Notes under the pieces: generated by a model
What the model was told of the DNA's origin: nothing
Database searches by the model: none
Seen by the model: the letters and a program-made list of their open reading frames with translations, nothing else
Shown here: positions 11,323 through 52,667 of the stretch, one piece after another
How positions within the stretch are numbered: position 1 is the first letter of the stretch
Layout of the letters: every line of letters begins with the position of its first letter
Translations under genes and position numbers: made by a program
NCBI GenBank assembly: GCA_977017645.1
Contig: OZ360239.1
Coordinates: 55,056,001 to 55,120,000 of the forward strand
Length of the DNA: 64,000 nucleotides
Direction of reading: 5' to 3'
Source: Torpedo marmorata
Lineage: Eukaryota

Positions 11323-11332
11323 CCTCCTTCCC
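11323..11332 (-). other. Polypurine tract
   Basis: Minus strand GGGAAGGAGG immediately before the 3' LTR. Confidence 0.75.
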
Positions 11333-11480
11333 ACAGAGAAAATTTTGAACTTCTAAAAGGTCAAAATTTTAAATTGCAATCTATCATTTGTTTGATAGAT
11401 TTCTTACACAACATGATACAAACAAATATTGCAGAAATAACATGTAAATTCAACATCTGGATAGGCAATCAGCAATCACA

Positions 11481-13000
11481 TTATCCTTGCCTCTTAATAT
11501 GAGTTACAACCAAATCATATTCTTGCAAAGTTAAACTCCATTTCAATAACCGTCTATTTTTATGTTTCATTTTACTCAAAAACACCAACAGATTATGGTC
11601 AGTATAAACAATAATTGATCCCATAGCAGTGCAAACATATACTTCAAAATGTTGCAGAGCTAATACAAGAGACAATAATTCCTTTTCAATAGTAGAATAA
11701 TTCTTAGATACGTAAGCCACTGGATGTTCAATACCATCACAGTCTTTTTTTTTAATAGGACAGCTCCTGTTGCTTCATCACTGGCATCTACTGCTGAAGC
11801 AAATGGCTTTCCAAAGTCAGGAGATTTAAGCACAAGCTTGTGACATAAAATGGCTTTTAGTTTGTCAAAAGCTTCCTGACAAATAGTTGTCCAAATAAAC
11901 TTTTCACCCTTTTTCAAAAGATTAGTCAGAGGAATGGCAATGTCAGCAAAACTTTTACAGAACTTTCTGTAGTACCCAACCATTCCTAAAAATCTCCTCA
12001 CAGCTTTCTTACCCATGGGTACAGGAAATTCAATAATTGTCTGAACTTTAGCTTGAACAGGCGCCACTTTTCCTTGGCCTACAACATAACCAAGATAAGT
12101 CACCTTAGCATGACAAAATTCACTTTTAGCTAAATTAACTGTAAGATTGGCGTTCAAAAGTTTATCAAACAATCTCTCTAATGCAGAAATGTGTTCTTCC
12201 CATGATTCATTCCCTGTAACCAAGTCATCAATATAAGCATCTGCATGTTTTAAATCTTGAGTCACAGAATTAATCATCCTTTGAAATGATCCTGGAGCAT
12301 TCTTCATTCCAAATGGTAAAACATTGTATTCATATAAACCCGATGGGATTACAAAAGCAGAAATTTCCCTTCCTCTTTCTGTTAAGGGAACACACCAGTA
12401 ACCTTTTAATAAATCTATCTTTGTAAGAAAGGTAGCCTTTCCAATCTTATCCACACAATCATCCATCCTAGGGATAGGATAAGCATCTGTCTTTGTCACT
12501 CCATTAACTTTTCTATAATTAGTGCAAAATCTAACTGTCCTATCTGATTTAGGTACCAGTACACAAGGTGAACTCCAATCTGAAGTAGAACGTCTAATAA
12601 TATTATTCTTTAACATGTACTCAATCTCTTGATCTACCTGTTTACTCTTTTCAATATTCATTCTGTATGGATGCTGTTTGATGGGTTTTGCATCTCCAAC
12701 ATCAGCATTGTGGCAAACTCTCTGTTGCACATCCGGAAATACATTTCTGAATTTTAAAATCAACGGTTTCATTTGTTCCTTTTCCTGAGGTTTCAAATCA
12801 GCTAACTTCTCATCCAAATTTTCCAATATACTTGAATTAGACAAACGAGCTGGGACAATGTTTTGTGTGAAGTGACTCTCACAAGAGTCAGCTTGTGTGG
12901 TTTCATGATCCATAACCACCTTAGTTTTCTCCACCACCAATACCTCTGGTGAAGGCTGCTTCTGGCTAACATCCAAATTCTCAAAATAATGTTTTAACAT
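11481..13000 (-). pseudogene. Gypsy pol RT + RNase H (frameshifted)
   Basis: PIKQHPYR, WSSPCVLVPK, KIDLLKGYW, PFGMKNAP, YIDD, VDASD; RNaseH NYSTIEKE/YTDH in a shifted frame (11481-11720). Confidence 0.9.
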
Positions 13001-13082
13001 GTTAACGTGGCAACTCTGTATTTTACGTCTCCTATCAGGAGTTTTAACTACGTAATTAACTTCATTTACCTTAGATTCTATT

Positions 13083-14107
13083 TCATGTGGTCTTTAAAAT
13101 TTTGCTCTGAGGATTAGAAATTGTTGGAAAAATAATTAACACTTTATCCCCTGGTTTAAATATTCTCTCACGAGATTTCCTGTCGTACCAAACCTTCATA
13201 TCATCTTGAGCCATTTTTAAATTCTCCTTAGCTATCTTACAGACCTTCTGTAAGCTATCTTTGAACTTTGAAACATAATCTAACAAATTCAACTGTACAT
13301 CCTCATTAACCCACTTTCTTTCAACAACATTAAAGGTCCCCTAACCTCATGTCCAAACACTAACTCAAAATGACTAAAACCTAACAATTCTTGTATCGTT
13401 TCCCTTACTGCAAACAAAAGTAAATGAACACCTTCATCCCAGTCCTTCTCATTCTCAAAACAATAAGTCCTCATCATAGTTTTTAAAGTCAAATGGAATC
13501 TCTCCAAAGCTCCCTGAGATTCTGGGCGATATGCAGATGATGTAATTTGCTTAGCTCCCAATTTATAAACTAACTGCTGAAATACACATGACATAAAGTT
13601 ACTCCCCTGATCTGACTGTATTTCTTTCAGCAGACCAAATGAAGTGAACATTTTCACCAGAGCCCCAGACACAGTTTTTGCTTTAATATTCATAAGTGGT
13701 ATTGCTTCAGGAAACCTAGAAGCTGTACACATAATAGTCAACAAATATTAATTTCCAGCTTTTGTTTTGGGCAATGGACCAACACAATCCACAATAACTT
13801 TAGAAAATGATTCCCCAAAAACAGGAATAGGTTTTAAAGAAGCAACTGGTGGACTCTGATTAGGTTTCCCCACAACCTGACAAGTGTGACATGTCCAACA
13901 AAATCTCTTAACATCCTTTCTTAAATTAGGCCAATAAAATTGTTTCATAATTTTATAGGTAGTTTTCCTTACCCCAAGATACCCACTTAAGGGTGTGCTA
14001 TGATCCATGTTGAGAATCTCATCTCTATAGGCGTTAGGAACCACAACCTGGTGAACAACTGCCCACTCTTCATTAGCATGAATCTCAACTGACCTCCATT
14101 TTCTCAT
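13083..14107 (-). pseudogene. Gypsy integrase (Zn-finger + rve core), interrupted
   Basis: H...G(H/Y)LG...FYWP...CHTCQ, VDCVGPLP, SRFPEAIPL, IQSDQGSNF, SAYRPESQGALER. Confidence 0.88.
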
Positions 14108-14259
14108 TAATATTCCTTGCTTAATTTCCTCATGTGAGCAAGATCAATATCTTTATTTTGTTTCTCTATTAATTTTTCCCTGGATAATGAAAAATTATTT
14201 TCCAGCTGCTGTGCACTGTTACTACTTTCAAGTTTAATACCAGACTCCTGGTCTAACAA

Positions 14260-15200
14260 TTAAAAAAAAGTGACTGATGAATCATCACAGCCTGCTTCTT
14301 CCTGTGCCTGTAGTTGAATTTTGCAATCTTTTGTTCCTTTTAAATGAGTCTGTCGAGTACTTTCTTCACTGGCAAGGTTTTTAAACATAGCTTTTAAATC
14401 AGTTTGCTCAGCATTTTCTTTGCTACCCTGTTTCTCATCTCTTGGAATACAAGCATCTAGCACTGTTTCCTGTTCTCTCTTTCTCTTCAAGGAAAAAAAA
14501 ATCCCTACCACATGACCAGGTTTCTTATAATAGTTACAAAATGAACCAAAAGGTTTTCCCCATCTATTTTCTACCTTATTTTGGTACTTCATGTTACCCT
14601 TCTGAAAAGGTATTTTAGGCACAAATTTCACATTGTGATAGTCATCTGCAAATGTAGCAGAATTTCGTCCCTTTTTAAAAGTTTCACTTGGCTTTAATTT
14701 AAGATCTGGATTTACATCATACTCATTTGAAAATTCTGCAAAATCTGACCGTTTCTATTTCTCTCATCTCTATTTCAAACCTCTGTTTTTTTCTGCTTCT
14801 TCTGCCTCAAATCTCCTTTGCCGTTCTGCCTCCTCCAGTCTATATTTTCTCTCTCTCTCTCTCTCTCTCTAATTTCTTTGTTTCAAACTCCATCTCCTTT
14901 ACACGTAATTCAATCTCTATTCTACGTCTCTCTAACTCAACATGTTCCAGCTGTAACTGCTGTTTAAGAGAGTAAGATTTTCACTCAGGAAATTGTTTTA
15001 ACTCCTCCTTCTTTTTCACCCTCTGCAACTCTGCAGAGCTTGAAAATTCCAAAAGCTTATCAAGTCTCATTTGGAAAGTTTCACTTGGCCCACACTTAGT
15101 TTTGGGGTTTAAAACATAATCATCTGCAATTTTTGCAGACTTTGACGAAGTCTCCACTTACAAATCTACACAGATTGGTGATAACAAACATTTACCAAAA
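14260..15200 (-). pseudogene. Gypsy gag remnant with degenerate zinc knuckle
   Basis: CNYYKKPGH knuckle-like motif in ORF 14260-14631; position between PBS and integrase. Confidence 0.55.
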
Positions 15201-15331
15201 CCCATTGCAGCTGTTGTGTTTACACACACACACAATAAGCCTTTTAATTGGCTTTCAAAAAGATTTTTAACCAACAAATCGAATTTTAATCTATCAAATA
15301 AGCTCTCATTAAGCTCATAATTATTGGTCAA

Positions 15332-15349
15332 ATCACGAATGAGCCCCCA
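15332..15349 (-). other. Primer-binding site, tRNA-Pro-like
   Basis: Minus strand TGGGGGCTCATTCGTGAT just inside the 5' LTR; 15/18 match to TGGGGGCTCGTCCGGGAT. Confidence 0.75.
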
Positions 15350-15353
15350 ATTT

Positions 15354-16408
15354 TGTTACGAACTAACAAACCTTGCTAGTACTAACAAAGGAACAGCAAT
15401 GGAGAATTCACCAGACAATGGTAAATTAAAAATAATAGTATTTATTAAACTATTAATAACATAACATTTCTTTCTTATCTCTAAACTTAACTCTAACTTA
15501 AACCCCACTATGCACAAATGTAAATGAGTGTGTGTTAAAGTCCAAAATATTTTAGTTTAAACTTGGTTCTGAAAAAGCCAATTTTAAAGTCCAGTTTCAA
15601 ACTTTTTGTTGAACTTCAGGATCCCTTTAAATTGTGGTTCAGAGTAATTATAGAGCAAGAATGGTGCATCAGATTTCTTTCAAACTCACACATCTTTTGA
15701 TGAGTTGTCTTTCAGAGATTCTTTCTTCATACGAGTGTTTTCACAAGTTTTCCCCTATCTTGTTAAGGTTACAGAACTGATCTTCAAGATGATTTCTTTC
15801 TTAATCAACAGTGGTCTGTCTTATTTTAAAAGCCACTTATATGGTGTATCTCCTATGGTAAGGATAATACACAAAACAGCACCTCTATCTATGTCAGAGA
15901 TCACTGCTTCAAATTTTGTCTTTCCAGAAAGTCAAATTTCTTCAGAGGTCTTCAGAGTTGTCCAAAATATCTCTCTGCCTGCATTATATAGTTCTCTGAC
16001 ATCATGTGACGTGACATCAGCACAGTTTCATTTCTGCAAAACCTTTTGCCTTCCTTCAGAACCACTTCATATCCATTAAAACATCTGACCTCATCTCTGT
16101 TTAAGTGGTCATATCTCCGGAAAATCTGGCACATGTCACTCAAATGACACTTAAATTTGCAACAGCTGCTAGCATACTGCTTTTAAGAACCACACATTGT
16201 CCTGAAATCACTTAAAATTCACTTCTGTTTCATTATTGGTTTTGTCTTCTTAGACCTTGTGACTCCAAGCTGACATTCTTTCTCTTAGTGCAATGGTTTT
16301 TCTGCAAATGTGTGTGACCGACCAGCCCACAACTAACCTTACTATCAATATATATAATTCTATAACCTAACTTTAAATATTAATATTAACATTAACACAT
16401 CCTTTACA
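15354..16408 (-). repeat. 5' LTR of the Gypsy element
   Basis: TG...CA termini; direct repeat of 10253-11322. Confidence 0.92.
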
Positions 16409-16937: not shown

Positions 16938-17546
16938 GAAGCTGCGGTTGAGTTGATCTTCGCCGCCTTCTCCACGACAGCTAGTGCCAGCACATCCCTG
17001 GTGTTGCTGCTCCTTCAGCACTCCCAGGTCCTAGAGAAAGCGAGGTACGAACTGGAACAGCACGGTCTGATCCCCAGTTGCCAGTGCAATAGGCTCTTTG
17101 CCACCCAGGATAAAACCGTGGGCCACAAAAACAGCCGGCGTGTCCCTGAAACTGAAAACCAGGCGAGCGAGTCCATGGAAAGCCACCAGCGGCCAGAGAA
17201 TTTAGCCAGAGACAGTACCTTCCAATCTTCCGTTACTATTGTGGATAAATCCATCCGGCATAAAGAGTCTTCTCATATCCGCGCCGACCACGATCGTACC
17301 ATCCCAGATAAAGAACAGCCTTCCCCCTTTCGAAATAGCGAGTGTCCGGTAGCCGAGTCTCCCGGGGCGGCGGCGAAGGAGAGTGAAACAGGACGGTCGT
17401 GCGGAGATTGCGACTGTCAGCGCTCTCTGAGTCTGGAAATCCTGGGCCGCCTGCGCTACCTCGACTGTGTGGTCAAGGAGGTCCTGAGGCTGCTTCCCCC
17501 TGTGTCTGGGGGTTACAGGACGGCGCTGCAGACATTTGAACTGAAT
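16938..17546 (+). CDS. CYP26C1: Cytochrome P450 26C1, penultimate coding exon (I-helix to K-helix), 203 aa
   Basis: ccctag|GAA acceptor, AAT|gtaagt donor; EAAVELIFAAFSTTASASTSLVLLLLQH and KEVLRLLPPVSGGYRTALQTFEL (ExxR); synteny with CYP26A1/MYOF favours C1 over B1. Confidence 0.92.
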
Positions 17547-17934
17547 GTAAGTAAACTTCCAGTCGGGAAAGAAGGCTCTCTCTCATTTATAGATTCGGAA
17601 TTCGGCTGCGTAGACGTGACCATTGCCTGCGCCAACTTTGCCAAAGAGTATTCTAATCTGGTCCCTTCCCCTGGCAAAAAAAAATAAAAAAATCTTCGGA
17701 GCACTTATCCAATACCCTTTCAAAGGTTATTGAAACTGCATCCATCGATCGTCCTTGTCGAGTATTCCAGATTATAATAATTTATTTTTATAGCCGTCCG
17801 TCATTAGTCACTGTTATTTGTGAATTCACTACACCCGTCGCGTGTGGGATCTATATTATCCAGTTCAATGTAGTTCAATTTTCGATCATTTTGATTTCGG
17901 TATTTTAAACTGTTTTGCTTATTCCGAAAAGTAT

Positions 17935-18140
17935 CCAGCAACACATAATGCCGGAGGAACTCGGCGAGTCGGGCGCATCCGTGGAAGATAATTGACAGCT
18001 GATATTTCGGCCCGAGACCCTGTCAGGGTTTTCGGCCCGAAACGTCGACTGTTTATTACCTTCCATGGCCTGAATCGCTGAGTTCCTCCAACATTTTGTG
18101 TGTTGCTCCAGTTTTACAGCATCTGATTGCCTGTGAGAAG
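17935..18140. mobile_element. Fold-back Penelope terminal-repeat element (divergent subfamily)
   Basis: GCCGGAGGAACTCGGCGAGTC arm inverted against GCTGAGTTCCTCCAAC; contains GGCCCGAAACGTCG. Confidence 0.6.
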
Positions 18141-20024
18141 TTTCCACCCACCTCCAATAAAGGGGTCGGATTCCATTGTACTGAGGAAGCGGGCTGTAAT
18201 GCTAACTAAGTCTAGCGCGGTGTTCGGTGAGCTGGATCGAGCTGAAACGAATGCAATAATGAACAGCTAAAACACTTCAGTCTGTACGTTCCACACAGAC
18301 GTGGGGCTGGAGGGTGAAGGTATGTTTAAGAGGTTACAATAATAAATATCAAGGTCGATTCAAAAGACTATTGGCTCGCAAGGTGCATAAAAGGAGGGGA
18401 GTAACGGAAATCTTCGGTTTGTATCAAGGACTTGAAATATTTTCCAGTGTTTCGTAATACACGGGAGACTTAGAGGCGCAGATAAAATCAGAATTGCTTT
18501 CCCACATGCAGACATTCATAAGGAGCCTGACGCATCGATCGAAGAATAATTGTCGACCAAATCATAAGGCCTTCCTGCTTAGAGAAGCAGAACTTTGCTT
18601 CTGGCCGGACTTATTCTAACCAAACCACAGGGGTGAAGGACAGTCAGCCGGGAGAGGGAGTGGTGGTGAGAATCACAATGGCCATTGATCCCAAAGCAGC
18701 CCACATGTTAAAGTGGGTAACTCTCTTGAAAGGAACCCCTTGAAAAGATACCACGGGTTCATTATAAACAGCTGGTACGAGGAAACTCGTAGTCTCTCGT
18801 GCAGTATTGAAGTTGTACGCCCAATTCCTTGAAATAAAATAAAAATAATTGCTGTTGCCAGAAAAGTGAAATGAGCAGGAATATCTGGAAAATCAAACGA
18901 ACCCCCATCCACCCAATATATTAAATGTTCAGATGTTGCCTGGCCTGTTCATAGGGTTGGGACTTGTAGATGTGTTACTGGGGTTCATAGAATTTCGTCT
19001 TGACTCTAGAAACTCTTCAAGCCAAATTAAGTACTGCAAAGTTAGATACATCATAGTCTGTCCTTTCACGACATTATTAATGCACATTGTAACTGGTTGA
19101 AACTTTATATTGGAGAAACACGTGCAGGAATCTTGAGCAAACAAAACGGAGCGAGAGGGTTTGCAGATTCCTAAAAGGATCTGTACCCGAAACCTTGTCT
19201 GTCTATATTTCTCCATGAATGCCTACTGACCTGCTGAGTCTCTCCAGATTCTTTGTTTTCTGAAGCTCAATATTGATGTTTGTGACACATCGCACGCAAC
19301 AGACTGGCCATCTGTAAAATCCATTTTTTATTTCTATTGCTTTTCTGCTCTTTAATAAATTCTCTCTGAATTCTGATATATCCTCGCCTCCATCTTATAA
19401 ACATCTCATTTGAAGAATCGTATATTCTATATCCAGCTATTCATCTTAAATATTCATCTGTTTAAATTTATCAAACGTTCCTTTGTTTCTGTTCATTTTT
19501 CCCTGTTGAAAAAACATTGTCATCTTCCAATCAAACTGCACGTTGGGGATGGGCAATGAAGGAGGGCGTTGCCAGCGACATCCACATTCCTTACGCAATA
19601 ACTCGAAGAAGCACAATCTGCTACCACCTTGCCTAACTTCTCAAACTCATTTAGTACTCCCCATAGCTCACATTCCTTCCTAACTTTCTATCATCAGTAA
19701 ACTTAGATACAATTTGAATTTGCATCTTAGTTGTTAACATAAATGGAGTTAGCCGAAGGGCCAAGGCTGGTCCTTGTGACATCTCACTGCTAACATGAAA
19801 GGCACTGATTTATCCCACCCTCTTTCTGCTGAAGTTTGACGTTTATCGGTAAAGGCCGATTTCACCTTGCATTCGCGGACCTTCGCGAAAAAAAAACCGC
19901 AATAAATGATCAGAATTCGTTAATGTGTGCGTTGGAAGTCCTTGGGGTGGCTGAAGAAAAAAAGGCAAGTGAATGGTTGGACCTGCCCCATTATGCAATG
20001 ATATGAACCCAGTATCCAGTCTCG

Positions 20025-20292
20025 TAAAACACGAAAATCTGTAGACACCGTGGTTGAAGTAAAAAACACAAATGCTGGAGAAACTCAGCAGGTCAAACAG
20101 TGTCTTTTATGTAGCAAAGGTAGAAATACATAACCGACGTTTCGGGCTTGAGCCCTGTTCGGACACCTGCCGGCATTTTCTCATACTTTGATGAAGGGCT
20201 CAAGCCCGAAACGTCGGTTATGTATTTCTACCTTTGCTACATAAAAGACACTGTTTGACCTGCTGAGTTTCTCCAGCATTTGTGTTTTTTTA
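20025..20292. mobile_element. Young fold-back Penelope terminal-repeat element with hammerhead-like motif
   Basis: ~100-bp near-perfect inverted arms; 15-bp TSD CAGTATCCAGTCTCG (20010-20024 and 20293-20307). Confidence 0.85.
20182..20222 (+). ncRNA. Putative minimal type-I hammerhead ribozyme (U3 variant)
   Basis: CATACT-TTGATGA-A-GGGC(TCAA)GCCC-GAAAC-GTC-GGTTATG: stem I, core, stem II, palindromic minimal stem III, GUC triplet. Confidence 0.55.
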
Positions 20293-20999
20293 CAGTATCC
20301 AGTCTCGGAGCTGTGTTTTGACAAACTGCCTGGACTTCCCCTGAGAACATCAGCGATGCCATCCATCAAGAAGGCTGCGCTGTTTTCAATGCCCTTTCTC
20401 TGACATGTTCCCTTTCCGCAACGCGGACGCGAGTGGCAGGGTTGACATTAATTGTCTGTCCCCCACACACACCCCCCCCCCCTTGACCCTACTCTGAAAT
20501 TCCACGCAGTTGCCAGTGCGGAGTGGCACTTGGGTCAGGCCAAGGATGGGAGGATTTTCCTGAAGGGCGTGCTGAATTAGAAGGGATTTGTTACAACCAT
20601 CTGATCGTTTCCTGATAACCATTACTGATTCTATTTAAAACCCAAGGTTTCTTCATATCTACTGTATCTGTTTTAAACCTCCAAGCTATTATGTCCAGTA
20701 CAAGTTGTCCAGGGTGAAAAATGTGCTTGGGACTGCTTGAGGAATATGGCCCCGGTCTCTGTCCTGGTGCTGATGAGCCGAGGCCCGTACACCGCCTCTT
20801 CCCGTGCTTTCCACAAACTACCACACAACATCCGTGCAGTCCAACGTGACGCTGCTCGTAGCAGCGCTGCAAGAGAACGGCAACAACCACTTCACAGCCG
20901 ACCATCTTGTCGAGCATTTTGAGTGCACGTTCGCGATGCTCTTTGCACAGAGGCCGAAGGTTCAGATGGCGTGCACTTGTCGACTGTTTGCTCAGTGCG

Positions 21000-21292
21000 A
21001 AGGGGTCACAGTTTAAGGATAAAGGGGAAGTCTTTTAGGACTGAGATGAGAAAAAAAAATTCACTCAGAGGGTGGAGAATTTGTGGAATTCTCTGCCACA
21101 GGAAGTAGTTGAGGCCGGTTCCTTAGCTATATTTAAGAGGGAGTTAGATTTGGCACTTGTGACTAAGGGGATCAGGGGGTATGGAGAGAGAGCTGGTACT
21201 GAGTGGATGATCAGCCATGATCAAAACGAATGGCGGTGTAGGCTTGAAGGGCCAAATGGCCTACTCCTACATCTATTTTCTATGTTTCTATG
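21000..21292 (+). mobile_element. CR1 3'-end fragment
   Basis: RGHSLRIKGKSFRTEMR-like translation, NLWNSLPQEVVEA; TTTCTATG tail. Confidence 0.75.
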
Positions 21293-21440
21293 AATGCTAC
21301 CGTTTTCTGGGCACGTGGTGACAGCTTGCAAATTTGAACAATGTAATGATTTACAATGGTGTGCATTTAATGGTGTGCAATCCTGAATATTCAAATACCG
21401 GTAACTAAATCTCTAAATGAGTATGTGCAATTTATTTAAG

Positions 21441-21762
21441 TAAAACACGAAAGTCTGCAGACACCATGGTTGAAGTAAAAACACAATGCTGGAGAAACTC
21501 AGCAGGTCAAGCAGTGTCCTTTATATAGCAAAGGTACAGATAGGAGAGCATCAAGGTACAGATGGGGAGCAGTTTTGCTGGTGTGCCCTTCTACCTATTA
21601 CCACCTATTACCTCCTGCCTGTGGGCCTCCCTCTGCCCCTCCTCCTCACTCTTTTGTTCGGGCGCCTGCCCACATTTTTTCAAGCCCGAAACGTTGGTTA
21701 TGTATCTTTATCTTTACTACACTGTTTGACCTGTTGAGTTTCTCCAGCATTGCGTGTTTACA
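21441..21762. mobile_element. Fold-back Penelope terminal-repeat element
   Basis: Same family arms as 20025-20292; TSD-like AATTTATTTA at 21429-21438 and 21766-21775. Confidence 0.75.
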
Positions 21763-21865
21763 TGGAATTTATTTATTTAGTTTCGAAAAGCGTTAAATTC
21801 TACAAGCTTGCCTTCATACAGTCTGATTCAACAATTTAACCCGGTCATTCTATCTTTTTTTTAAA

Positions 21866-22106
21866 AAATTAGACATACAGCACGGTAACAGGCCATTTCG
21901 GCCCACGAGTCCGTGCTCTCCAATTTACACCCAATTAACCTACAGCCCCGGTACGTTTCGAACGGTGGGAGGAAAACCGGAGCCCCCGGGGAAAACCCAT
22001 GCATACACGGGGAGAACGTACAAACTCCTTACAGACAGCGCGGGATTCGAACCCAGGTCCCGATCGTAAAGGCGTTGCGCTAACCGCTACACCAACCGTG
22101 CCGCCC
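21866..22106 (-). mobile_element. tRNA-derived V-SINE (HE1-like) with CR1-derived tail
   Basis: Minus strand GGGCGGCACGG.., A box TGTAGCGGTTAG, B box GGTTCGAATCCC, V-domain-like GGAGTTTGTACGTTCTCCCCGTG, tail GGCCTGTTACCGTGCTGTATG. Confidence 0.8.
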
Positions 22107-23509
22107 ATTTATTTAAGTGACCAAAATTTCCAACACAATCTTCTCCCTCGAGCTGCAAGCAAAGCTCTATCCAACAAGGGTCTTCGACTTGAAACGTTAC
22201 CTCTGTTTCTCTTTCCTTAAATGGTACTTGACCTGCTGAGTTTTACCTGGTTTTTCATCTTATTTTATATTTCCAGCATTGTAATTTTTACGAGTTAGAA
22301 ATGTCCTTAATTTTATAACCACTCAGACCACCATTTATTTAAAAATACTAATTGTCCACATCTCAATACACACGATACATTTGGCTGCACGATGTACTAC
22401 TGTTCCAAGGAAACGATCTCAAACGCGTGCTTTCGAAACTCATCCTGCAGCATCCAGGAAAAACAGGTCAGTTTTTCTTCAGTCAGCCCCCCCTCCCCAG
22501 ATATGATTTCGCATCCCAGAGCCGCGAACGTTTCCTTTAATGCCGAGCCCGCAGGAAAATACTGTCTCCGAGATGAGTGAATGATCCCCTGTATATTGTC
22601 AAATCCCTTGTTAATACTTCCTATTCAGGGTCACGGTTACACTGAGTATTTGTCCCACTCAGAACTGTTCGAGGGCAACATAAGAACTGCAGAAGCTGAA
22701 ACCTTGAGCAAAGAAAGAGAAGAGGGAGGAACTCAACGGGTCGGGCAGCATCCGTGGAGAGAGATGGACAAAGTTTCGCGTCGGGTCCCTTTTTGGAGAC
22801 TAGGTCGGAAAAGTGAGATATTCAAGCGTGAAGAGAGGGTCGAGGAGGGTGGGGGGTGGTGGGGGGTAAGATGGAAGAGGATACTGGACAGAAGAAGATC
22901 GGAGGTGGAGAAATAGGTGGGGAAGAGAGTACTGGTGATTGGAGAAAAAAGCGAGTACGGGAGCGTGTAAAGGACAGATAGAATGTGGAACCGGATGATG
23001 GTGGGGGGCTGTGCTGGATGTCACACAGCCCTGCAACGCCCTTTTTCCATTACTATGGTTTTTGTTGCATTGGTTCCCCATGCCCCAACAGATGGAGATC
23101 AAGATTCGTTGCGGCTCCGTCCCATCAACTATCCTGTAAATTAATCACTACTTCTCCACCGCGGCTCATTGCTCAATTCCTGCTCTCTGACATGTTGGCG
23201 TTCTCTATTTTGAAAGTCACTCTCTCATTATCCTCCTTTCCTATTTTGAAACGAACATTTATTTTGTCTCAAAAAGGACGTAGAGGGACTCACCAGGTCA
23301 CGCAGCATCCGAAGAGAGAAAGGAGCAGTCAACATTTCGGTCGGGTATCTTTCATGTTCAAGATAACTGCAAAGGCAATTCTCTGTCTTTTATCTTGTTG
23401 CTCCTCAGATGTCTGTCTTTCCCCAAAGCTAATAAGCTCCCCCCCCATCTCCCTACTTCTCCTCCCTCTCTCTCCCAGTCACGCTTACGAGGTTCTCCTT
23501 CCCTATCTC

Positions 23510-24901
23510 TACTTTCCCCCTCCCTCTTCCCTCCCTCTTCCCTTCCCCTCTCCTTCCCTCTCTTTCTCTCTTTCCCCCTCTCTTTCCCCCTCTCTTTCCC
23601 CCTCTCTTTTCCCCCTCTCTTTCCCCCTCTCTTTCCCCCTCCTTCTTCCCCCTCTCTTTCCCCCTCTCTTTCCCCCTCTCTTTCCCCCTCTCTTCCCCTC
23701 TCTTTCCCCCTCTCTTCCCCCTCTCTTTCCCCCTCTCTTTCCCCTCTCTTTCCCCCTTCTTTCCCCCTCTCTTTCCCCCTCTCTTTCCCCCTCTCTTTCC
23801 CCTCTCTTTCCCCCTCTCTTTCCCCTCTCTTTCCCCCTCTCTTTCCCCTCTCTTTCCCCTCTTCTTCCCCCTCTCTTTCCCCCTCTCTTCCCCCTCTCTT
23901 CCCCCTCTCTTCCCCCTCTCTTTCCCCCTCTCTTTCCCCTCTTTCCCCCTTCTTTCCCCCTCCTTTCCCCTCTCTTTCCCCCTCTCTTCCCCTCTCTCCC
24001 CTCTCTTTCCCCTCTCTTTCCCCCTCTCTTTCCCCCTCTCTTTCCCCCTCTCTTTCCCCCTCTCTATCCCCCTCTATCCCCCTCTTTCCCCCTCTCTTTC
24101 CCCCTCTCTTTCCCCCTCTCTTTCCCCCTCTCTTTCCCCCTCTCCTTCCCCCTCTTTCCCCCTCTTTCCCCCTCTTTCCCCCTCTTTCCCCCTCTCTTTC
24201 CCCTCTCTTTCCCCCTCTCTTTCCCCCTCTCTTCCCCCTCTCTTCCCCCTCTCTTTCCCCTCTCTTTCCCCCTTCTTTCCCCCTCTTTCCCCTTCTTTCC
24301 CCCTCTCTTTCCCCCTCTCTTTCCCCCTCTCTTTCCCCCTCTCTCCCCCTCTCTTTCCCCCTCTCTTTCCCCCTCTCTATCCCCCTCTATCCCCCTCTTT
24401 CCCCCTCTTTCCCTCTCTTTCCCCCTCTCTTTCCCCCTCTTTCCCTCTCTTTCCCCCTCTCTTTCCCCCTCTCTTTCCCCCTCTTTCCCCCTCTCTTTCC
24501 CCCTCTTTCCCCCTCTCTTTCCCCCTCTCTTTCCCCCCTCTCTTTCCCCCTCTCTTTCCCCCTCTCTTTCCCTCTCTTTCCCCCTCTCTTTCCCCCTCTC
24601 TTTCCCCCTCTTTCCCCCTCTCTTTCCCCCTCTTTCCCCCTCTCTTTCCCCCTCTCTTTCCCCCTCTCTTTCCCCCTCTCTTTCCCCCTCTCTTTCCCCC
24701 TCTCTTTCCCCCTCTCTTTCCCCCTCTCTTTCCCCCTCTCTTTCCCCCTCTCTTTCCCCCCCTCTTTCCCCCTCTCTTTCCCCCTCTCTTTCCCCCTCTC
24801 TTTCCCCCTCTCTTTCCCCCTCTCTTTCCCCCTCTCTTTCCCCCTCTCTTTCCCCCTCTCTTTCCCCCTCTCTTTTCCCCTCACTTTTCCCCCTCTTTCT
24901 C
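23510..24901 (+). repeat. ~1.4-kb polypyrimidine minisatellite (TCTCTTTCCCCC)n
   Basis: Almost pure C/T, ~12-bp unit, directly visible. Confidence 0.97.
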
Positions 24902-25107
24902 CGTGGTTGTAGGTCCCACTGTCTTGCAAACGCTTTGAAATCTTTCTTCCCCGAGGGAAATTACTGGGGATTTGTAAGGAAGCAGGGATGAAAACGTACG
25001 GACAGTTGGTAAGGAGGTAGAAACAAAGCGGCGTGAGGCAGGAATGAATCACAGCAGTGCAGAACCGTATGTGAGTGGGCCATCTGCTTCCGACGAGCTG
25101 AATGAGT

Positions 25108-25360
25108 AAAAAAACACAAATGCTGGAGAAACTCAGCAGGTCAAACAGTGTCTTTTATGTAGCAAAGGTAAGAAATACATAACCGACGTTTCGGGCTTGA
25201 GCCCTTCATCAAAGTATGAGAAAATGCCGGCAGGTATAATCGAAACGTCGGTTATGTATTTCTACCTTTGCTACATAAAATACACTGTTTGACCTGCTAA
25301 GTTTCTCCAGCATTTGTGTTTTTTACTTCAACCACGGTGTCCACAGATTTTCGTGTTTTA
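25108..25360. mobile_element. Young fold-back Penelope terminal-repeat element
   Basis: Inverted arms; 13-bp TSD GAGCTGAATGAGT (25095-25107 and 25361-25373); hammerhead-like motif on minus strand 25178-25218. Confidence 0.85.
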
Positions 25361-25505
25361 GAGCTGAATGAGTGACAGCTTGTAGAAGGTAGCAAGCCTA
25401 TTGGCCATCGAGCGTAAGGCGAAGGGATGAATTAATTACTTGTTATAACTCTAAATAACATATCTCAAGCACTGCCCGCAGTTACCTGCTCTGTCTGATT
25501 CACAG

Positions 25506-25874
25506 GGATGTCAGATACCCAAAGGCTGGAATATTATATACAGCATTCGTGACACACAAGAGACAGCGGCCGTCTATTTGAATCCAGACAGATTCGACCC
25601 AGATCGGTTTGGACCCGAGCGGGATGAGAGCAAAGTGGGTAGATTTAATTATTTGCCCTTCGGAGGGGGCGTTCGGAGCTGCATCGGAAAAGAGTTGGCG
25701 CAAATCATCCTCAAAACACTGGCGATTGAATTAATCAGCAGCGCGCAGTGGGAACTGGCCAGTGCCGCCTATCCCAACATGCAGACCGTGCCAGTTGTAC
25801 ACCCAGTCGATGGGCTGAAGGTTCGGTTTCGTCGCTTGAACGATAAAGGAAATTGCAAACCCATAAACGAATAA
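25506..25874 (+). CDS. CYP26C1: Cytochrome P450 26C1, last coding exon (heme-binding motif)
   Basis: ttcacag|GGA acceptor; GCQIPKGWNIIYSIRDT, FDPDRF, PFGGGVRSCIGKELA (FxxGxRxCxG), MQTVPVVHPVDGL; TAA stop. Confidence 0.93.
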   Translation, partial: GCQIPKGWNIIYSIRDTQETAAVYLNPDRFDPDRFGPERDESKVGRFNYLPFGGGVRSCIGKELAQIILKTLAIELISSAQWELASAAYPNMQTVPVVHPVDGLKVRFRRLNDKGNCKPINE

Positions 25875-26433
25875 CAGGACACAGCCAAGTACCTCGCAGC
25901 CTGTGTAAGGCGAGTTAGCCAATGCCCGAGTCCTGTGACGTCAGACGACGTGGTCAAATCTATGCCAAGCGATTTGCCCCCACAAAATGTGAATGCCAGT
26001 AAATGTAAATTAACATTGACTGGCTTCAGGCTTCGGCAGAGGGCCCACTGCCAATCACTTCCAAGCACCGGAAACCAGTTATCTCAAAAGTGTTTGTTGA
26101 ATCTTAAAATGTTTTTTCCCCTCACCAATACAGTACACCCAAACACACCATGGCAAAACACAGTACTTTATCTATGCACTTATACATTAATGTACTAGTT
26201 TTTAGAGCGTGCAGCTACGAACTAAAGTGTGGAACCGCAGTTTTCCCACACGACTGTTGACCAGGTACTGACCCCTTTACGTTAAACTTTGTTTCATCAG
26301 TGTGGAAAGGATGGCGCTTCGACAGTGAATTTTGTCACATTGCCTTTTTGTTCTTTTTCACCCAGAATATACTTCGTTTAATACTTCAATCAACAGTGAA
26401 GGGACCAAAATAAGTTATGTATTTTGTAAACCA

Positions 26434-26439
26434 AATAAA
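26434..26439 (+). terminator. Candidate polyadenylation signal of CYP26C1
   Basis: AATAAA followed by GT/T-rich downstream sequence, 560 bp after the stop. Confidence 0.65.
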
Positions 26440-26643
26440 ATATGTGTTTGTTTTGTTTACATTGGCTGTTGCTCTGGTTAGGTTATAAAGACTACAGCCG
26501 TTAATCTAGCATGGCCTCTTTCATCCTTGCCTCACTCCACATGTCCATCCTCACTGTCCTTCGACAATGGTCACAGTCTGGAGTGACCTGAAGAGGAATA
26601 GACTGTTAGAACTGTGAGCTGGAAAGATTGGGGAATGGGGACT

Positions 26644-26941
26644 GGGGTGGTGACGAGGCGGGTGGGGCTGAGGATTGTGAATGGAGAGCGAGGTGGTGGT
26701 AGGGAGATTGTGTGAGGGGTGGTGACGAGGCGGGTGGGGCTGAGGATTGTGAATGGAGAGCGAGGTGGTGGTAGGGAGATTGTGTGAGGGGTGGTGACGA
26801 GGCGGGTGGGGCTGAGGATTGTGAATGGAGAGCGAGGTGGTGGTAGGGAGATGGTGTGAGGGGTGGTGACGAGGCGGGTGGGGCTGAGGATTGTGAATGG
26901 AGAGCGAGGTGGTGGTAGGGAGATGGTGTGAGGGGTGGTGA
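26644..26941 (+). repeat. G-rich 72-bp tandem repeat, ~4 copies
   Basis: Unit starting GGGGTGGTGA(CG) recurs at 26644, 26716, 26788, 26860, 26932. Confidence 0.92.
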
Positions 26942-26954
26942 GGAACCAAACATA

Positions 26955-27200
26955 TGAGATTTCAGAGGCAAGTTATTTTACAGAGAGTGGTGGGTGCCTG
27001 GAATGGATTGCCGGGGGTGGTGGTGGAGGCTGGTACAATAGGGGGCATTTAAAAGATTCTTAGATAGGCACATGGATGCAAGAAAAGTAGTGTTATTTAT
27101 GGGTGTGAAGTAGGGAAGGATTAGATTTTTGTGGAGTAGTTTATATAGGTCGGCACAACATTGTGGGCCGAAGGCTCTGTGCTATGCTGTTATGTTCACT
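26955..27200 (+). mobile_element. CR1 3'-end fragment
   Basis: TTTTACAGAGAGTGGTGGGTGCCTGGAATG..., GGGCCGAAGG tail. Confidence 0.65.
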
Positions 27201-28511
27201 GTTGTGATGATCTTTGTTCTTTAAGAACAATGACATGTTATGGATATGGACAGTATTCAATTCATGAAACTTATGGACACGCCAGGGGATTCTCGAGCGG
27301 CTGAGTTGCCCTGTTAGTGTTTGTTTTAAATTGAGGCATGTAATCACATGAACATTTCCCATTAAACTTTAAGGCCAAAATATCCTTGCCTTGAAAATGG
27401 ATTGCGCTGTTTTATTAAAGTGCTAATCATACAAAATCCGATTTTACGTGGAGTTAGTTGCGAAATCAGACTTTCATGTATGATCTATATATCGCTTGCC
27501 CTATCTTTTCTGACAGCAATGGTGTCATTTGCCAGATAATACACCTTTCTATAAATGTGCATCAAAACTCCATGCTACCGCCAGTTTGTCGCTTTTCTAC
27601 ACATTTAAAAGGCCAAGGAATCGGATAATTTCAAGTGGTTCCAGACTACTCAAACATCTCAAATCAAATGCGTGCAGAGTGTTTGCTACCATACTTAGTT
27701 GTCGATGTAATATTTCCGTGTGTGCCTCAGAAGTGATATTTTTCGTTGCACTTCAGTGCTGGACCTATTATTATAGTTACGACTGATCTCTCAGAGTGAG
27801 ACAGGGACCTTGTGGTCCGACATAAAGGCATGCGTATCAGCCTTCTCACAAAGAGTCTTCACAGACATGCATTCTATCAAGACCAATAAACAATGTATTT
27901 GCATCCGCAGTTTTCCAAGGCTTTCACCATCGACGTAAGTGAGATTCTTCAGATTCACACGCCTACTTGGACGATTCTGACTGTAAAGATCAAGTTCGTG
28001 TTGTCTCTCAACTTCCTCACGTTGGGCTCTTTTCATGTAGCCATAACCGTGTTTCTCCGTTTGTTGCTCACTGTGGCACAAGCGAAGCTACCCAGACACT
28101 GCGCTCATGAAGTGATGGCGTCACTGCTTATGATTCCAGCGAGGAACCGGCAGCATTTGGGGCACTAAGATTTTCCAGTATTATTGGCTTTTCACAAACA
28201 CGGGCAGCTGTTGGCTGCACTCATGTACTCATCGGAACTGACGTAGGAACTTCATCAAACGGAAAAGGTTTCACTTCAGGGTGTAATGTCTGAGCACACA
28301 TTATCACTGAGATCATCCAAGCCATTCGGTCTCAGGATGGTCACTGAAAGTAAGAATAAGGTAGTCCTTGGGGCAACACTTTACTCCTCCACATGTGGCT
28401 CTAATACCTGGTCCTACTCTCTCTGACACTGGGTATCACCCAGTATTATCCAACCGACTCACTTTGTGTAGTTTAATAAGCACTGCAACTGAGCAGGTAC
28501 TTGAAAGGCTT

Positions 28512-29132
28512 CGTCAAGAATCGTCAAGTGAAACTACACTTCACTTGTACTTCCAGAGAACATATTTACTGCATCGGGAGATCGTTTTGCTGAGCACCTC
28601 CTCTCCGTCCGCAACAACAGCGACCTCCCAGTAGCCAGCCATTTCAATTCCGAGTCACACTCCCACACTCACATGTCTGTCTATGCCCTTATGTACTATC
28701 CCACCCAGACTACCCGCAAATTGGAGGAACAACATCTCATTTTCTCTCTGGGCACTCTCCAGCCAGATGGCATTAACATTGACTTTTCTGCTTTCCACTA
28801 AACCTGCTTGTCTTTTCCTTCCCCTCCCCCCTCACCTGTCCTTCCTGTTTTTTTCCACCCACCCAGTCATCCCTCCTCCCCCTCTTTGCTGCTGTCTCCT
28901 TCCTCCTTTCTCCACCTATAATCTCCTGCCTTTGCCACCCCCCTTCCCCCCTCACTCTTTTGTTCGGACGCCTGCCGGCATTTTCTCATACTTTGATGAA
29001 GGGCTCAAGCCCGAAACGTCGGTTATGTATTTCTACCTTTGCTACATAAAATACACTGTTTGACCTGCTGAGTTTCTCCAGCATTTGTGTTTTTTACTTC
29101 AACCACGGTGTCTACAGATTTTCGTGTTTTAC
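28512..29132 (+). mobile_element. Penelope-like retroelement 3' portion: GIY-YIG endonuclease C-terminus plus terminal repeat
   Basis: Manual translation FTCTSREHIYCI / GDRFAEHL..DLPVASHFNS..KLEEQHLIFSLGTLQPDGINIDFS, TAA 28799-28801; 14-bp TSD TACTTGAAAGGCTT (28498-28511 and 29133-29146). Confidence 0.85.
28987..29027 (+). ncRNA. Putative minimal hammerhead ribozyme (U3 variant) in Penelope terminal repeat
   Basis: Identical motif to 20182-20222, downstream of the GIY-YIG stop. Confidence 0.55.
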
Positions 29133-33172: not shown

Positions 33173-34236
33173 CCTCTTAGAATTTTACTGTCTCCTCTCC
33201 CCCTTCACCCAGCATTAACCAACAATTTCTTCTCCTTCGTGATTGATTTAAGGTCCTATCTATAAGCTCCACCTCCATGCACACTTCTTTAGTTACTAAT
33301 GGACCCTAATCTTTCCCTGATTCCCCTCCCCCTTTATTCTTACAAAATGCTTTGAGATCTTCCTCAAGCTTGTCTTTAGGTGATATTTCCTCCCCCGTTT
33401 TCCCTCCTGAATTACTTTCAAGTACTCTCATTAATGTTCTCTGTTCCTGATGGGCCTCCCCTGCTTTCAATACTCTGCTTTATCCAACCCTCGATATTCA
33501 GGGTTCCTTGGTCTTGCTGTCCTTACCTTTCTCCCTTATGGGAATGTTGCACCTGAACCCTGTTCCAATTTTGAATTACTCCCATATGTCCGATATTGAC
33601 TTAACTGTGAGAAGCTGCTCCCAGTCCACGTTTGCTAGGTCTTGTCTTATGATGGACTCCTGATGCAGGGTCTCTAAACTTGGACTGTTCCCTTGTCCTC
33701 CACAGATGCTGCCTGACCCGCTGAGTTCCTCCAGCAGTTTGTGTTTTTTGCTCCAGATGTTAACATCTGCCGTCTATTGTGTCTCCTCGTCTTATGATAT
33801 TCAAACCGTGATACCCCCAATTTACGACCTCAATTGCTTGTTTCAATTTGTTATATATCTGCATTAGACATTTTGCTTGTGTTTATTTTGCGCTGCTTGG
33901 TATGCTGAGGAAGATGTTCAGTTTTATGGCCTAAAGACACCACAGCTATGTTTTGCATCTCTTAATCATTTTGATATGAAGGATAACGACCGTGTATTCA
34001 TGTAAAAACTGGGAGAAGCCACCATCTCATTAACACTGACCCAATTTTAAAATCCTAATGCCTCAGCAGCGCACAGCATCCATGCATTTTGCTTCAGAAA
34101 ATTTATACCCTCACATCCAGACAGTGGAAAACAACGAAATCGTTTATTTTAAACTCTCTTAATATAAAGTGTAATTGCTCTTTAAGGTGCATGGGAATTC
34201 GCTTTTGTTCACCTGTAGAATATAGAACAGTTTACA

Positions 34237-34421
34237 CACACAGAAATGCTGGTGGAACGCAGCCGGGGCGAGGGCTTATTCCTTGAAGAAGGGCTCAGGC
34301 CCATAACGTCGGTTATATATCTTTACCTTCTATGGACGCTGTGAGACCGACTAAGTTCCTCCAGCATTTCTGTGTGTTTTTACTACAATCACAGCGTCTG
34401 CAGACTTTCGTGTTTCACATC
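34237..34421. mobile_element. Fold-back Penelope terminal-repeat element
   Basis: TTGAAGAAGGGCTCAGGCCCATAACGTC (decayed hammerhead motif); 11-bp TSD AACAGTTTACA (34226-34236 and 34422-34432). Confidence 0.7.
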
Positions 34422-38330: not shown

Positions 38331-38340
38331 CGTGCACTTT

Positions 38341-38567
38341 ATAGTAAAACCACAAAGCTGGAGAAACTCAGCAGGTCAGTGTACTTTATAGAGCAAAGAT
38401 AAAGATACGGAACCAACGTTTCTGGCTTGAGCCCTTCATCAAGATACCTTGATTATGTTGGTTATGTATCTTTATCTTTGCTCTATACAGTACAGTTTGA
38501 CCTGCTGAGTTTCTCCAGCATTGTGTTTTTACTTCAACCAAGGTGTCTGCAGACTTTCCTCTTTTAC
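38341..38567. mobile_element. Fold-back Penelope terminal-repeat element
   Basis: Inverted arms; decayed 13-bp TSD GCCCGTGCACTTT/GCCCATGTACTTT. Confidence 0.75.
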
Positions 38568-51295: not shown

Positions 51296-52497
51296 GCTAA
51301 ATGAGATCCGTGACATTGGTAACCTGATCAGCCCTTTCAAAGGGCAAAGGATTGGCTCAAATCAAGTGAGATTCCTCCATCGATGACCATATGAACATAT
51401 CTAAACTAGTGGTTCCCATTTTACAGTGCACTCCAATGAGATTCTTTCTTACTCTCCAGTGTTGATCTCCAAATCTTTCTTCATTTAATGTGGTGAATGG
51501 ACTCTTGGGACCAAGTGGATATATTTCCCTACATCAGAACAATTCTGAAGTCAGCTCAGAGGTACAATTTAGAAAAAAAGTCAATAAAACCAGATAGCTT
51601 TGACTAGTTTCTGTTGCCTCATAACCCTTCTCTGTCCTCCAGTGTTCTGGATTTTAGAACACAAATTGCCCAACAAACGTGTCAACTGTCTTTAACATCT
51701 AGAATTTGCAGCAGGGTTTGATGAATTGCATTCTGTCTAATCACTATATTTAGTCCAAATGTGCGACAGTTTTTAAAATCAGTCCAAGTTTCGAAGGGTA
51801 CCCCCAATTTACAATCGCTCTAAAATCCTCTTGAATCTCTTAAGCAAGAGCTTATTATTTTGCAGCTTCTTAAAATCTCTCAACTCAATGACAGTGTACT
51901 GACCAAAACTGGAATGGCCTGCTGTTACTGTGAATGCATAAACATTTATCATCAGGTGGAGGTTTTCTTTATGAATTATTTTGTTCATTGCTTTCCATGC
52001 TCATTACGTAGAGATATTGGCTGTGTTTAGACTCAACTTTTTTTTTTTCCTTTTATTATCAAGTTCTGCCATTTCATCACACTTTTCCATTTTTCCTTTT
52101 CTTTTGCAATCTCTGGTGACAATACCAGTTGCAATTGTAACTTGCTTTACACTGGTTTTATTCATGGTGTCTAATATTGACATCTAGTCCTTAGGAAGAC
52201 AATGGATTTGGCCATCCTCGGGTAGTTTATGATTCATTATGTTAAAGAATACAAATCAAATTTGCACTGATTTCAGAGTTCAGAGAAAAGGCGAGAGAAA
52301 AATAGTTAAATAAGAATAGTTATGTTTTTAAGGGAGTTTTATTCACCTCCCAGCATGTCGTTTATCCGAGGGATGAAGTTGTACAGGACAGATTGGAGGT
52401 AGTTCTATTCCTCAGCCATCTCTCCAGTTGATGGTGTTGTGACATTAGAAGCATATCTGTGTGAGGGGTGAGCAGCCAAACACACTTTGACTTTAAG

Positions 52498-52667
52498 AAA
52501 CACACAGAAGTGCTGCAGAAACTCAGCAGGTCACACAGCGTCCAGAGGAAGCAAAGGGATATAACAAAAATTTCGGGCCTGAGCGCTTCCTCAGACCTTG
52601 ATGAGTTTCTCAAGTACTTTTGTGTATTGCACTACAATCACAGTGTCTGCAGACCTTTCTGTTTAAC
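52498..52667. mobile_element. Fold-back Penelope terminal-repeat element
   Basis: Inverted arms; 11-bp TSD TTGACTTTAAG (52487-52497 and 52668-52678). Confidence 0.7.

What the first reader, a model, noticed from the sequence alone, without database searches (positions are those of the whole stretch)
20025..29132. Abundant mini-retroelements carrying a variant minimal hammerhead ribozyme
Seen: three identical 41-nt motifs (20182-20222 +, 25178-25218 -, 28987-29027 +) read CATACT-TTGATGA-A-GGGC(TCAA)GCCC-GAAAC-GTC-GGTTATG. This folds as a type-I hammerhead: stem I with one bulge, stem II, a loopless palindromic ACGT stem III and a GUC cleavage triplet. Decayed copies lie near 34.28 kb and 38.42 kb. 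Known: Penelope-like elements carry minimal hammerheads thought to cleave as dimers, and the C3-G8 pair is normally conserved. Unusual: the three intact copies and both decayed ones have U3 with G8 retained, plus an extra A after A9, so the variant looks family-wide rather than copy decay. Inference: a mobile family with an attenuated or differently folded ribozyme; the 20182 copy lies in sense within the CYP26C1 pre-mRNA.
Basis: partly seen in the sequence, partly recalled or inferred. Interest (0 to 1): 0.7.

Follow-up and report, generated by a model that had tools for sequence, protein, structure and literature searches.

The report
Jumping-gene ends with weakened hammerhead ribozyme
The motifs are the ends of a hugely amplified Penelope-type jumping gene, likely in a ray, whose small hammerhead RNA motif has U instead of the usual C at a core pair in about 99% of exact-match copies, which likely makes it a very slow cutter and offers a natural test of whether such elements need to cut their RNA at all.

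Summary
Observation confirmed: three identical 41-nt motifs; the same 41-mer occurs 40,048 times in the 6.2-Gb genome. They are not a separate mini-element. They are terminal repeats (pLTRs) of a Neptune-type Penelope-like element with RT and GIY-YIG, inserted as truncated or fold-back copies with 13-15-bp target duplications. U3 is family-wide: 81,501 U3 versus 881 C3, with no amplified C3 or A8 rescue. The extra A after A9 is a published, normal trait, and a U3·G8 example already stands unremarked in a 2014 supplement. Added here: older subfamilies had C3; U3 came after a stem I change that is predicted to trap C3 in a misfold, and U3 is predicted to ease that trap. Copy ends do not pile up at the cut site. 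The copy in the CYP26C1 intron is predicted to be locked in a 96-bp hairpin. Best reading: a slow ribozyme kept by selection; cleavage untested. The scan reported this family before on other pieces of this genome.

The parts
20025..20290 (.). Fold-back insertion of two 5'-truncated pLTR ends of the PLE (youngest subfamily); arms 20061-20156 and 20195-20290 are 100% complementary over 96 nt
   Evidence: 15-bp target-site duplication starting at 20010 and 20293
20182..20222 (+). Minimal hammerhead motif, U3·G8 core, predicted cut between 20215 and 20216; sense in the last CYP26C1 intron; predicted to be sequestered by the fold-back arm
25106..25360 (.). Second fold-back insertion of two truncated pLTR ends
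   Evidence: 13-bp duplication starting at 25095 and 25361
25178..25218 (-). Identical hammerhead motif, antisense to CYP26C1; stem I probability 0.0 in context
28512..29132 (+). 5'-truncated PLE copy: end of the ORF plus the complete 3' pLTR with its 37-nt tail; 97% identical over 560 nt to the 3' end of full-length copy L066
   Evidence: 14-bp duplication starting at 28498 and 29133
28532..28801 (+). C-terminal 89 codons of the PLE ORF (end of the GIY-YIG region)
   Evidence: no Pfam hit on its own; longer relatives found with it carry weak RVT_1 and GIY-YIG hits
28987..29027 (+). Identical hammerhead motif in the 3' pLTR, about 3.1 kb past the CYP26C1 stop codon and past four AATAAA/ATTAAA hexamers
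34230..34418 (+). Older (M subfamily) fold-back copy; motif at about 34277-34317 with U3 and A7, G12 and A13 lost
38339..38567 (-). Older (Y3-type) fold-back copy; motif at about 38408-38448 with U3, stem II broken
21440..21760 (.). Further fold-back copy of the family; 5' half of the hammerhead deleted
52494..52667 (.). Further decayed fold-back copy of the family
16938..17546 (+). Penultimate coding exon of the CYP26C1-like host gene (start approximate)
25506..25874 (+). Last coding exon of the CYP26C1-like host gene

Best explanation
The motifs are the hammerhead segment of the terminal repeat of a Neptune-type Penelope-like retrotransposon whose younger subfamilies carry U3 with G8, and this is likely a very slow, dimer-dependent ribozyme whose fold is likely still kept by selection in the source elements. 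Steps. (1) Shown: a 4.0-kb element with RT and GIY-YIG remnants and a hammerhead in both pLTRs inserted with target-site duplications; most copies are 5'-truncated. (2) Shown, on a tree of limited resolution: older subfamilies have C3; A1.2 became G in a C3 subfamily; the C/T tract then gained one base and position 3 became U; the descendants amplified most. (3) Predicted: G1.2 lets C3 and the core pair with the 3' strand in an inactive hairpin; U3 weakens that trap and restores stem I register, at the cost of a wobble 3-8 pair. (4) Inferred: cleavage is rare, so most templates are copied straight through the site. (5) Predicted: the two copies in the CYP26C1 intron are silent passengers.
For: Element identity: (linker C-X4-C-X2-C fits the CX2-5CxxC motif). 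Family-wide U3: 81,501 vs 881; 81 U3, 10 C3, 14 other, 15 absent of 120 hits in 130 random 10-kb stretches. In the youngest 35-mer context, non-T at 3 = 142, non-G at 8 = 319, control non-G at 5 = 475, so there is no amplified rescue. History: a 95/91 clade holds 50 U3 of 54 rows; C3 rows dominate outside it. Selection: across 8 U3 group majorities 0 of 12 catalytic-core positions and 0 of 6 further stem II positions change, apart from CpG-type changes at 15.2/16.2 in the two smallest groups, while N7 takes A, G and U, H17 takes C and U, and 8 of 20 peripheral positions change (Fisher p = 0.014). Misfold gap, monomer medians: 2.5 kcal/mol (old C3, A1.2; n = 4), 6.7 (C3, G1.2; n = 11), 2.6-3.9 (U3 groups; n = 53, 1, 1, 1), 6.1-6.5 (4 natural C3 revertants); the same order in tandem dimers. 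Low activity expected: all single and double mutants of the C3/G8 region except the G:C swap were of low activity in PMC9901934; these motifs are slow even with C3. No pile-up at the cut site.
Against: No cleavage was measured and no raw RNA reads were available. Core conservation is partly built in, because copies were found with a core-anchored pattern and profile, and the Fisher categories were chosen afterwards. Other pLTR blocks are as well conserved as the core, so conservation need not mean catalysis. The youngest and largest subfamily weakened stem I further (C2.1 to U). The trap is still predicted to win in every group, canonical ones included, and nearest-neighbour energies ignore core tertiary contacts. 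Several groups rest on 1-4 copies. The tree uses 106 columns, needs 10 changes for U3 (at least 5 forced by starred branches), leaves 5 U3 rows outside the main clade, and was rooted at the midpoint. C3 rows were largely fetched by searching for C3. Full-length copy L066 begins 41 nt upstream of the 5' cut site, so its template was uncut or re-ligated.
Confidence: 0.5

Rival explanations
1. The motif no longer cuts. Its sequence is kept because the hairpin or the DNA serves another cis role in the pLTR (binding of the element's RT/EN protein, a promoter element, or a stop point for reverse transcription).
For: C3 single mutants are of low activity. No excess of copy ends at the cut site: 103 raw hits, of which 8 of the 30 loci read were small indels, against 55 at a control site 6 nt away, about 1.1-1.3 fold after correcting for flank probability. 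Up to 7 of 44 random copies begin 27-34 nt upstream of the cut site, at the 5' edge of the core, and 0 of 44 at the site. Naiad PLEs thrive without hammerheads. Non-ribozyme blocks are conserved too.
Against: The core positions that vary between U3 subfamilies, N7 and H17, are the ones the hammerhead leaves free, and H17 is never G in a majority. Stem I is rebuilt in different ways (UACC/GGUA, CAUACC/GGU-U-AUG).
Confidence: 0.3
2. Neutral decay: the hammerhead is a dispensable passenger, U3 was fixed by hitch-hiking in one successful master lineage, and the apparent conservation reflects few master elements and little time.
For: The youngest subfamily is about 3% diverged and adds a second weakening change. 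PMC8557442 suggests hammerheads may simply parasitise PLEs.
Against: U3 persists through subfamilies from about 16% to 3% divergence (4-23 random copies per class). Over that span flanks changed and gained indels, but the core did not.
Confidence: 0.13
3. The motif is an efficient ribozyme in vivo through another fold or a helper protein (for example a C kept at position 3 with a bulged U), and the sense copy trims CYP26C1 pre-mRNA.
For: In the CC-UU subfamilies a C lies next to U3, so a bulged-U fold is conceivable; natural insertions near C3 keep low activity. Helper factors were proposed in PMC4209133.
Against: The youngest subfamily has no C left in that position. The intronic copy is predicted fully paired in a 96-bp hairpin. 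The nearest same-sense copy is 8.8 kb away, past the stop codon and four poly(A)-type hexamers. The insertion is a young repeat copy with an intact target duplication.
Confidence: 0.07

Closest known systems
Minimal type I hammerheads (min-HHR) in pLTRs of metazoan Penelope-like elements (Cervera and De la Pena 2014, PMC4209133)
   Same: Type I order, no stem III loop with palindromic ACGU, an extra nucleotide between 9 and 10.1, G10.1-C11.1, short stem I, presence in both pLTRs, and mostly solo or opposite-strand copies.
   Different: Consensus there is CUGANGAH and the variant discussed is the compensated U3-A8. Here U3 stays with G8 in at least 81,501 copies, against the 2,000-9,000 motifs per genome quoted there. 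No shark or ray is among the 56 representatives of their Fig. S3.
Saccoglossus kowalevskii (1) PLE hammerhead in Fig. S3 of PMC4209133
   Same: Core reads UUGAAGAA, that is U3 with G8, in a PLE-associated motif given as the representative of a family.
   Different: One representative sequence, not discussed in the text I read and not assayed there; longer stem II.
Neptune clade of endonuclease-bearing PLEs (as described in Craig et al. 2021, PMC8557442)
   Same: [quoted passage not shown]
   Different: No RT tree was built here, and Nematis shares the linker. The insertions seen have clear 11-15-bp target duplications and are not in microsatellites.
Animal non-LTR retrozymes (PMC7229834; bioRxiv 10.64898/2026.07.22.740005)
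   Same: Type I hammerhead and a link to PLE pLTRs.
   Different: Retrozymes are protein-free tandem repeats. Here copies are dispersed ends of a coding element; 8 of 59 had a same-sense neighbour within 5 kb.
Natural hammerhead core variants (Perreault et al. 2011, PMC3088659)
   Same: Core changes near C3 occur in nature and keep low activity; one saltern variant is written U2a G2b U3 in PMC7151607.
   Different: Rare, single prokaryotic or viral examples, not a family amplified in a vertebrate genome.

Membership tests
PLE minimal hammerhead | Core U4 G5 A6 N7 G8 A9 / G12 A13 A14 with A15.1-U16.1 and an NUH triplet | tested here: met
   sequence; invariant across group majorities
PLE minimal hammerhead | Watson-Crick pair between positions 3 and 8 | tested here: not met
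   U3·G8 wobble in 81,501 of 82,382 exact matches; met in older subfamilies
PLE minimal hammerhead | Extra nucleotide between 9 and 10.1, G10.1-C11.1 pair, palindromic 15.2-16.2 | tested here: met
   against the traits listed
PLE minimal hammerhead | Stems I and II with compensatory changes | tested here: inconclusive
   Stem II does not vary within the U3 lineage; stem I is rebuilt between subfamilies but with few independent events; no formal covariation test was run
PLE minimal hammerhead | Located in both pLTRs of a PLE | tested here: met
   L066: motifs 3.87 kb apart, pLTRs 96.8% identical over 156 nt
PLE minimal hammerhead | Self-cleavage as a dimer | not testable with these tools
   no assay; no raw RNA reads
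Rfam hammerhead families | Match to a covariance model | tested here: not met
   no hammerhead family among 8 matches or 2 matches
Neptune-type PLE | ORF with RT then a C-terminal GIY-YIG | tested here: met
   RVT_1 E 7e-6 to 7e-3 in 3 of 4 ORFs and GIY-YIG E 0.002-0.03 in 2 of 4, all below Pfam cut-offs; every copy read is frameshifted or truncated
Neptune-type PLE | CX2-5CxxC linker between RT and EN | tested here: met
   C-ARRR-C-NT-C in P0001; motif
Neptune-type PLE | pLTRs, inverted 5'-truncated copies, 30-40-nt tail | tested here: met
   3' ends cluster at about +75 and +112 from the cut site; fold-backs
Neptune-type PLE | Placement in the Neptune clade by RT phylogeny | not tested
   no reference RT set was fetched
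Non-LTR retrozyme or non-autonomous mini-element | Protein-free unit in tandem arrays with fixed ends | tested here: not met
   5' ends scattered; 32 of 59 copies carry the ORF end and 48 of 59 are solo

The most novel reading that the evidence does not exclude
A vertebrate retrotransposon lineage tuned its ribozyme down: after a stem change trapped C3 in a misfold, it fixed a U3·G8 wobble that frees the fold but slows chemistry, kept every other catalytic base for a long time, and then out-multiplied its C3 relatives, so that slow rather than fast cutting is what these elements are selected for.
Probability: 0.25. Interest if true: 0.65.

Novelty: new variant of a known kind. Interest (0 to 1): 0.4.

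Why it matters
What the hammerheads of Penelope-like elements do is stated as unclear in PMC8557442. This genome holds a dated natural series: canonical C3, trapped C3, U3, and U3 with a wobble at 2.1, plus natural revertants, all as real sequences. Assaying them would show directly whether amplification success tracks cleavage rate. Descriptor searches that demand C3 or U3-A8 miss the whole family, roughly 4 x 10^5 copies by extrapolation from 81 hits in 1.3 Mb, so hammerhead censuses of cartilaginous fish are likely too low. The link to CYP26C1 is likely incidental.

Tried and rejected
Rfam scans: no hammerhead hit. RNA evidence: no RNA holder listed; 11 runs, all contigs, none on record as RNA. 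Laying contigs of five runs showed that the family is present in runs labelled as five organisms. 28993 T>C was not among the 40 best-supported differences shown (36 hidden), and loose ends ending ATACC before 28993 hint at CC-UU forms in three runs (agreement 0.39-0.61). That is a hint only; one search gave no substitution table. Cut-site fossil test: negative. One search was meant to count truncations at the core's 5' edge but was swamped by the TACC subfamily (3,788 hits), so it is uninformative. A general descriptor script missed the family and was dropped. A constrained cofold crashed and was replaced by a linked-dimer fold. Rejected: non-autonomous mini-element or retrozyme; extra A as a novelty; U3-A8 compensation; a hidden young C3 master in the youngest subfamily; a regulatory role in CYP26C1. 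Literature: five searches bear on whether U3·G8 is in print for sharks or rays and none returned such a paper. Lunse et al. 2017, Nelson and Uhlenbeck 2008 and Przybilski and Hammann 2007 are not held and may contain U3·G8 examples or rates. Supplement file 1 of PMC4209133 could not be searched, and supplements of the bioRxiv preprint are closed.
Full report
Observation. The three 41-mers are present and identical. The exact 41-mer occurs 40,048 times in the 6.22-Gb genome G000, and the reversed control 0 times. The two decayed copies have U3 and G8 but damaged cores. Rfam has no hammerhead match here. The host gene is CYP26C1-like: 94-98% identity to ray proteins of that name and P450 Pfam hits. 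The genome is therefore likely a ray's (inference). The last intron runs 17547-25505; the 20182 motif is sense and the 25178 motif antisense.

What carries the motif. The 28987 copy follows 89 codons that end an ORF. Searching G000 with them gave 235,316 first-look candidates, of which 150 were scored. Ten long copies were read. Their ORFs give weak RVT_1 hits in 3 of 4 and GIY-YIG hits in 2 of 4 tested, all below Pfam cut-offs, and carry a C-X4-C-X2-C linker that marks Neptune and Nematis PLEs (PMC8557442, passages). L066 is a 4.03-kb unit with the motif in both pLTRs, which are 96.8% identical, and an 11-bp duplication at its two ends. The three window insertions have 15-, 13- and 14-bp target duplications. 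The 20025 and 25106 insertions are fold-backs of two truncated ends, a known PLE arrangement. Among 59 distinct U3 copies from 130 random 10-kb stretches (identical copies collapsed), 32 keep the ORF end upstream, 48 are solo, 8 have a same-sense neighbour within 5 kb and 3 an inverted partner. These are ends of a coding PLE, not a mini-element family.

Position 3. With the same 26-nt remainder, U3 has 81,501 exact matches and C3 has 881; with any loop, C3 has 2,011. The 30 C3 loci read are a mix of older subfamilies, sporadic revertants and truncation junctions. In the youngest context, changes at position 3 number 142, at G8 319, and at the control G5 475. That is background, with no amplified C3 or A8 rescue. 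In random stretches, 120 of 160 profile hits covered the 5' side: 81 U3, 10 C3, 14 other, 15 absent or decayed. The dropped hits that were printed look like truncated or old copies, not a coreless subfamily.

What is already in print. PMC4209133 (parts 1-2 of 4 of the text; supplement file 2, parts 1-2 of 3) lists a nucleotide between 9 and 10.1 as a conserved trait, describes U3-A8, and reports low activity even for dimers. Its Fig. S3 holds a Saccoglossus PLE motif reading UUGAAGAA, that is U3 with G8, without comment in the text I read. PMC3088659 (outline, sections 8, 9, 17) reports U3-A8 and low-activity insertions near C3. [quoted passage not shown] PMC7151607, PMC7229834, PMC6765202 and PMC3884650 were seen as passages; the 2026 bioRxiv retrozyme preprint as part 1 of 5 plus passages. 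Three key papers were not held. Five searches returned no paper on this variant in sharks or rays.

History. I classed copies by sequence downstream of the ribozyme, using labels of my own. O2 (about 20% diverged) has C3 and A1.2. O1 has G1.2 and both C3 and U3 forms. M and Y (16% down to 3%) are U3; Y1 also changed C2.1 to U. Divergences rest on 4-23 random copies per class. U3 forms are one base longer in the C/T tract than C3 forms, so U3 arose by a U insertion, or by a C insertion followed by a transition. A tree of 99 rows built without position 3 (rows with an unclear 5' side left out; Y1 and Y3 subsampled) puts 50 U3 rows in a 54-row clade (95/91). Five U3 rows lie outside it, the label needs 10 changes, 46 of 94 branches are open, and the root is the midpoint. 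C3 rows were enriched by my searches.

Selection. Across 8 U3 group majorities, 0 of 12 catalytic-core positions change, while N7 takes A, G and U, H17 takes U and C, and 8 of 20 peripheral positions change (post hoc Fisher p = 0.014). Stem I is rebuilt in different ways. Against this, detection was anchored on the core, and other pLTR blocks are equally conserved.

Folding (predictions). The monomer's lowest-energy fold pairs the core with the 3' strand (-11.8 against -7.7 kcal/mol for the hammerhead-compatible fold). The penalty for the compatible fold has medians of 2.5 (O2, n = 4), 6.7 (O1 C3, n = 11), 3.9 (Y1 U3, n = 53) and 2.6-3.2 (three single U3 copies); 4 natural Y1 revertants give 6.1-6.5. 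Linked dimers give the same order: 12, 24, 17, 13-15 and 21. So U3 is predicted to ease a trap created by G1.2. The energies omit tertiary contacts, and the trap wins in all groups. In context the 20182 copy has stem I and II probabilities of 0.0 because of its 96-bp arm; stem I is also 0.0 for the 25178 and 28987 copies.

Does it cut? Nothing here measures cleavage. If cut RNAs were often copied, 5' ends should pile up at the site. There are 103 pattern hits at the site; 8 of the 30 loci read were small indels. A control 6 nt downstream gave 55. By my arithmetic, after correcting for flank probability (0.35 and 0.28), the ratio is about 1.1-1.3. Of 44 random copies, 0 start at the site and up to 7 start 27-34 nt upstream, some of them alignment-edge artefacts. 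L066 starts 41 nt upstream of its 5' cut site. This fits rare cleavage, no cleavage, or re-ligated circles.

Verdict. A real, family-wide variant of a known PLE hammerhead. It works like a PLE minimal hammerhead by ancestry and layout, but fails the Watson-Crick 3-8 test. Slow ribozyme kept by selection: 0.5. Dead but kept for another cis role: 0.3. Neutral decay: 0.13. Efficient or host-regulatory: 0.07. Earlier notes of this scan describe the same family on other pieces of this genome; I had reached my reading before seeing them, and took from them the idea of the cut-site test. Interest 0.4: the class is known and U3·G8 has a printed precedent, but the dated series with natural revertants makes an open question testable.

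Noticed in passing
window 10255-16077: Gypsy-like LTR retrotransposon remnant on the minus strand (RT, RNase H and integrase pieces at 11660-14754, named from recalled motifs) between 98%-identical direct repeats 5,101 nt apart; it likely lies in a large CYP26C1 intron, since the gene's 5' exons were not found in the window.
   Followed up: no
window 40521-45473: A second CYP26 gene on the + strand, 41-49% identical to CYP26C1; likely CYP26A1 by the recalled tandem arrangement.
   Followed up: no
window 29041-29050 and Y subfamilies: The Y subfamilies gained about 7 nt that turn CTATGGAC into a TATA-like stretch (TATATAAAG in Y3 and Y2, CATAAAAG in Y1) about 20 nt past the cut site; a promoter downstream of the ribozyme could relax the need for cleavage. 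Speculative.
   Followed up: no
L147, L150, L155, L244, L247: Very old relatives read AGTC-TCGA or its CpG-decay forms before the core, suggesting a separate ancient family with U3 and C4.
   Followed up: no
L171, L172, L180 (G000:C2, 8.1-8.5 Mb): Near-identical C3 copies with a CC stem sit in a 2.4-3.2-kb unit repeated in tandem with a minisatellite; likely local duplication rather than retrotransposition.
   Followed up: partly
random stretches: 5' ends of truncated copies seem to gather 27-34 nt upstream of the cut site, at the 5' edge of the core (up to 7 of 44); the genome-wide test failed by design.
   Followed up: partly
L277, L279: Short insertions that begin exactly at the predicted cut site and carry 10-11-bp target duplications; they could be copies of cleaved RNA but are not in clear excess.
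   Followed up: partly
window 23400-24950 and 26572-27003: A long 10-12-nt purine/pyrimidine minisatellite in the last CYP26C1 intron, and a 72-nt tandem repeat downstream of the gene.
   Followed up: no
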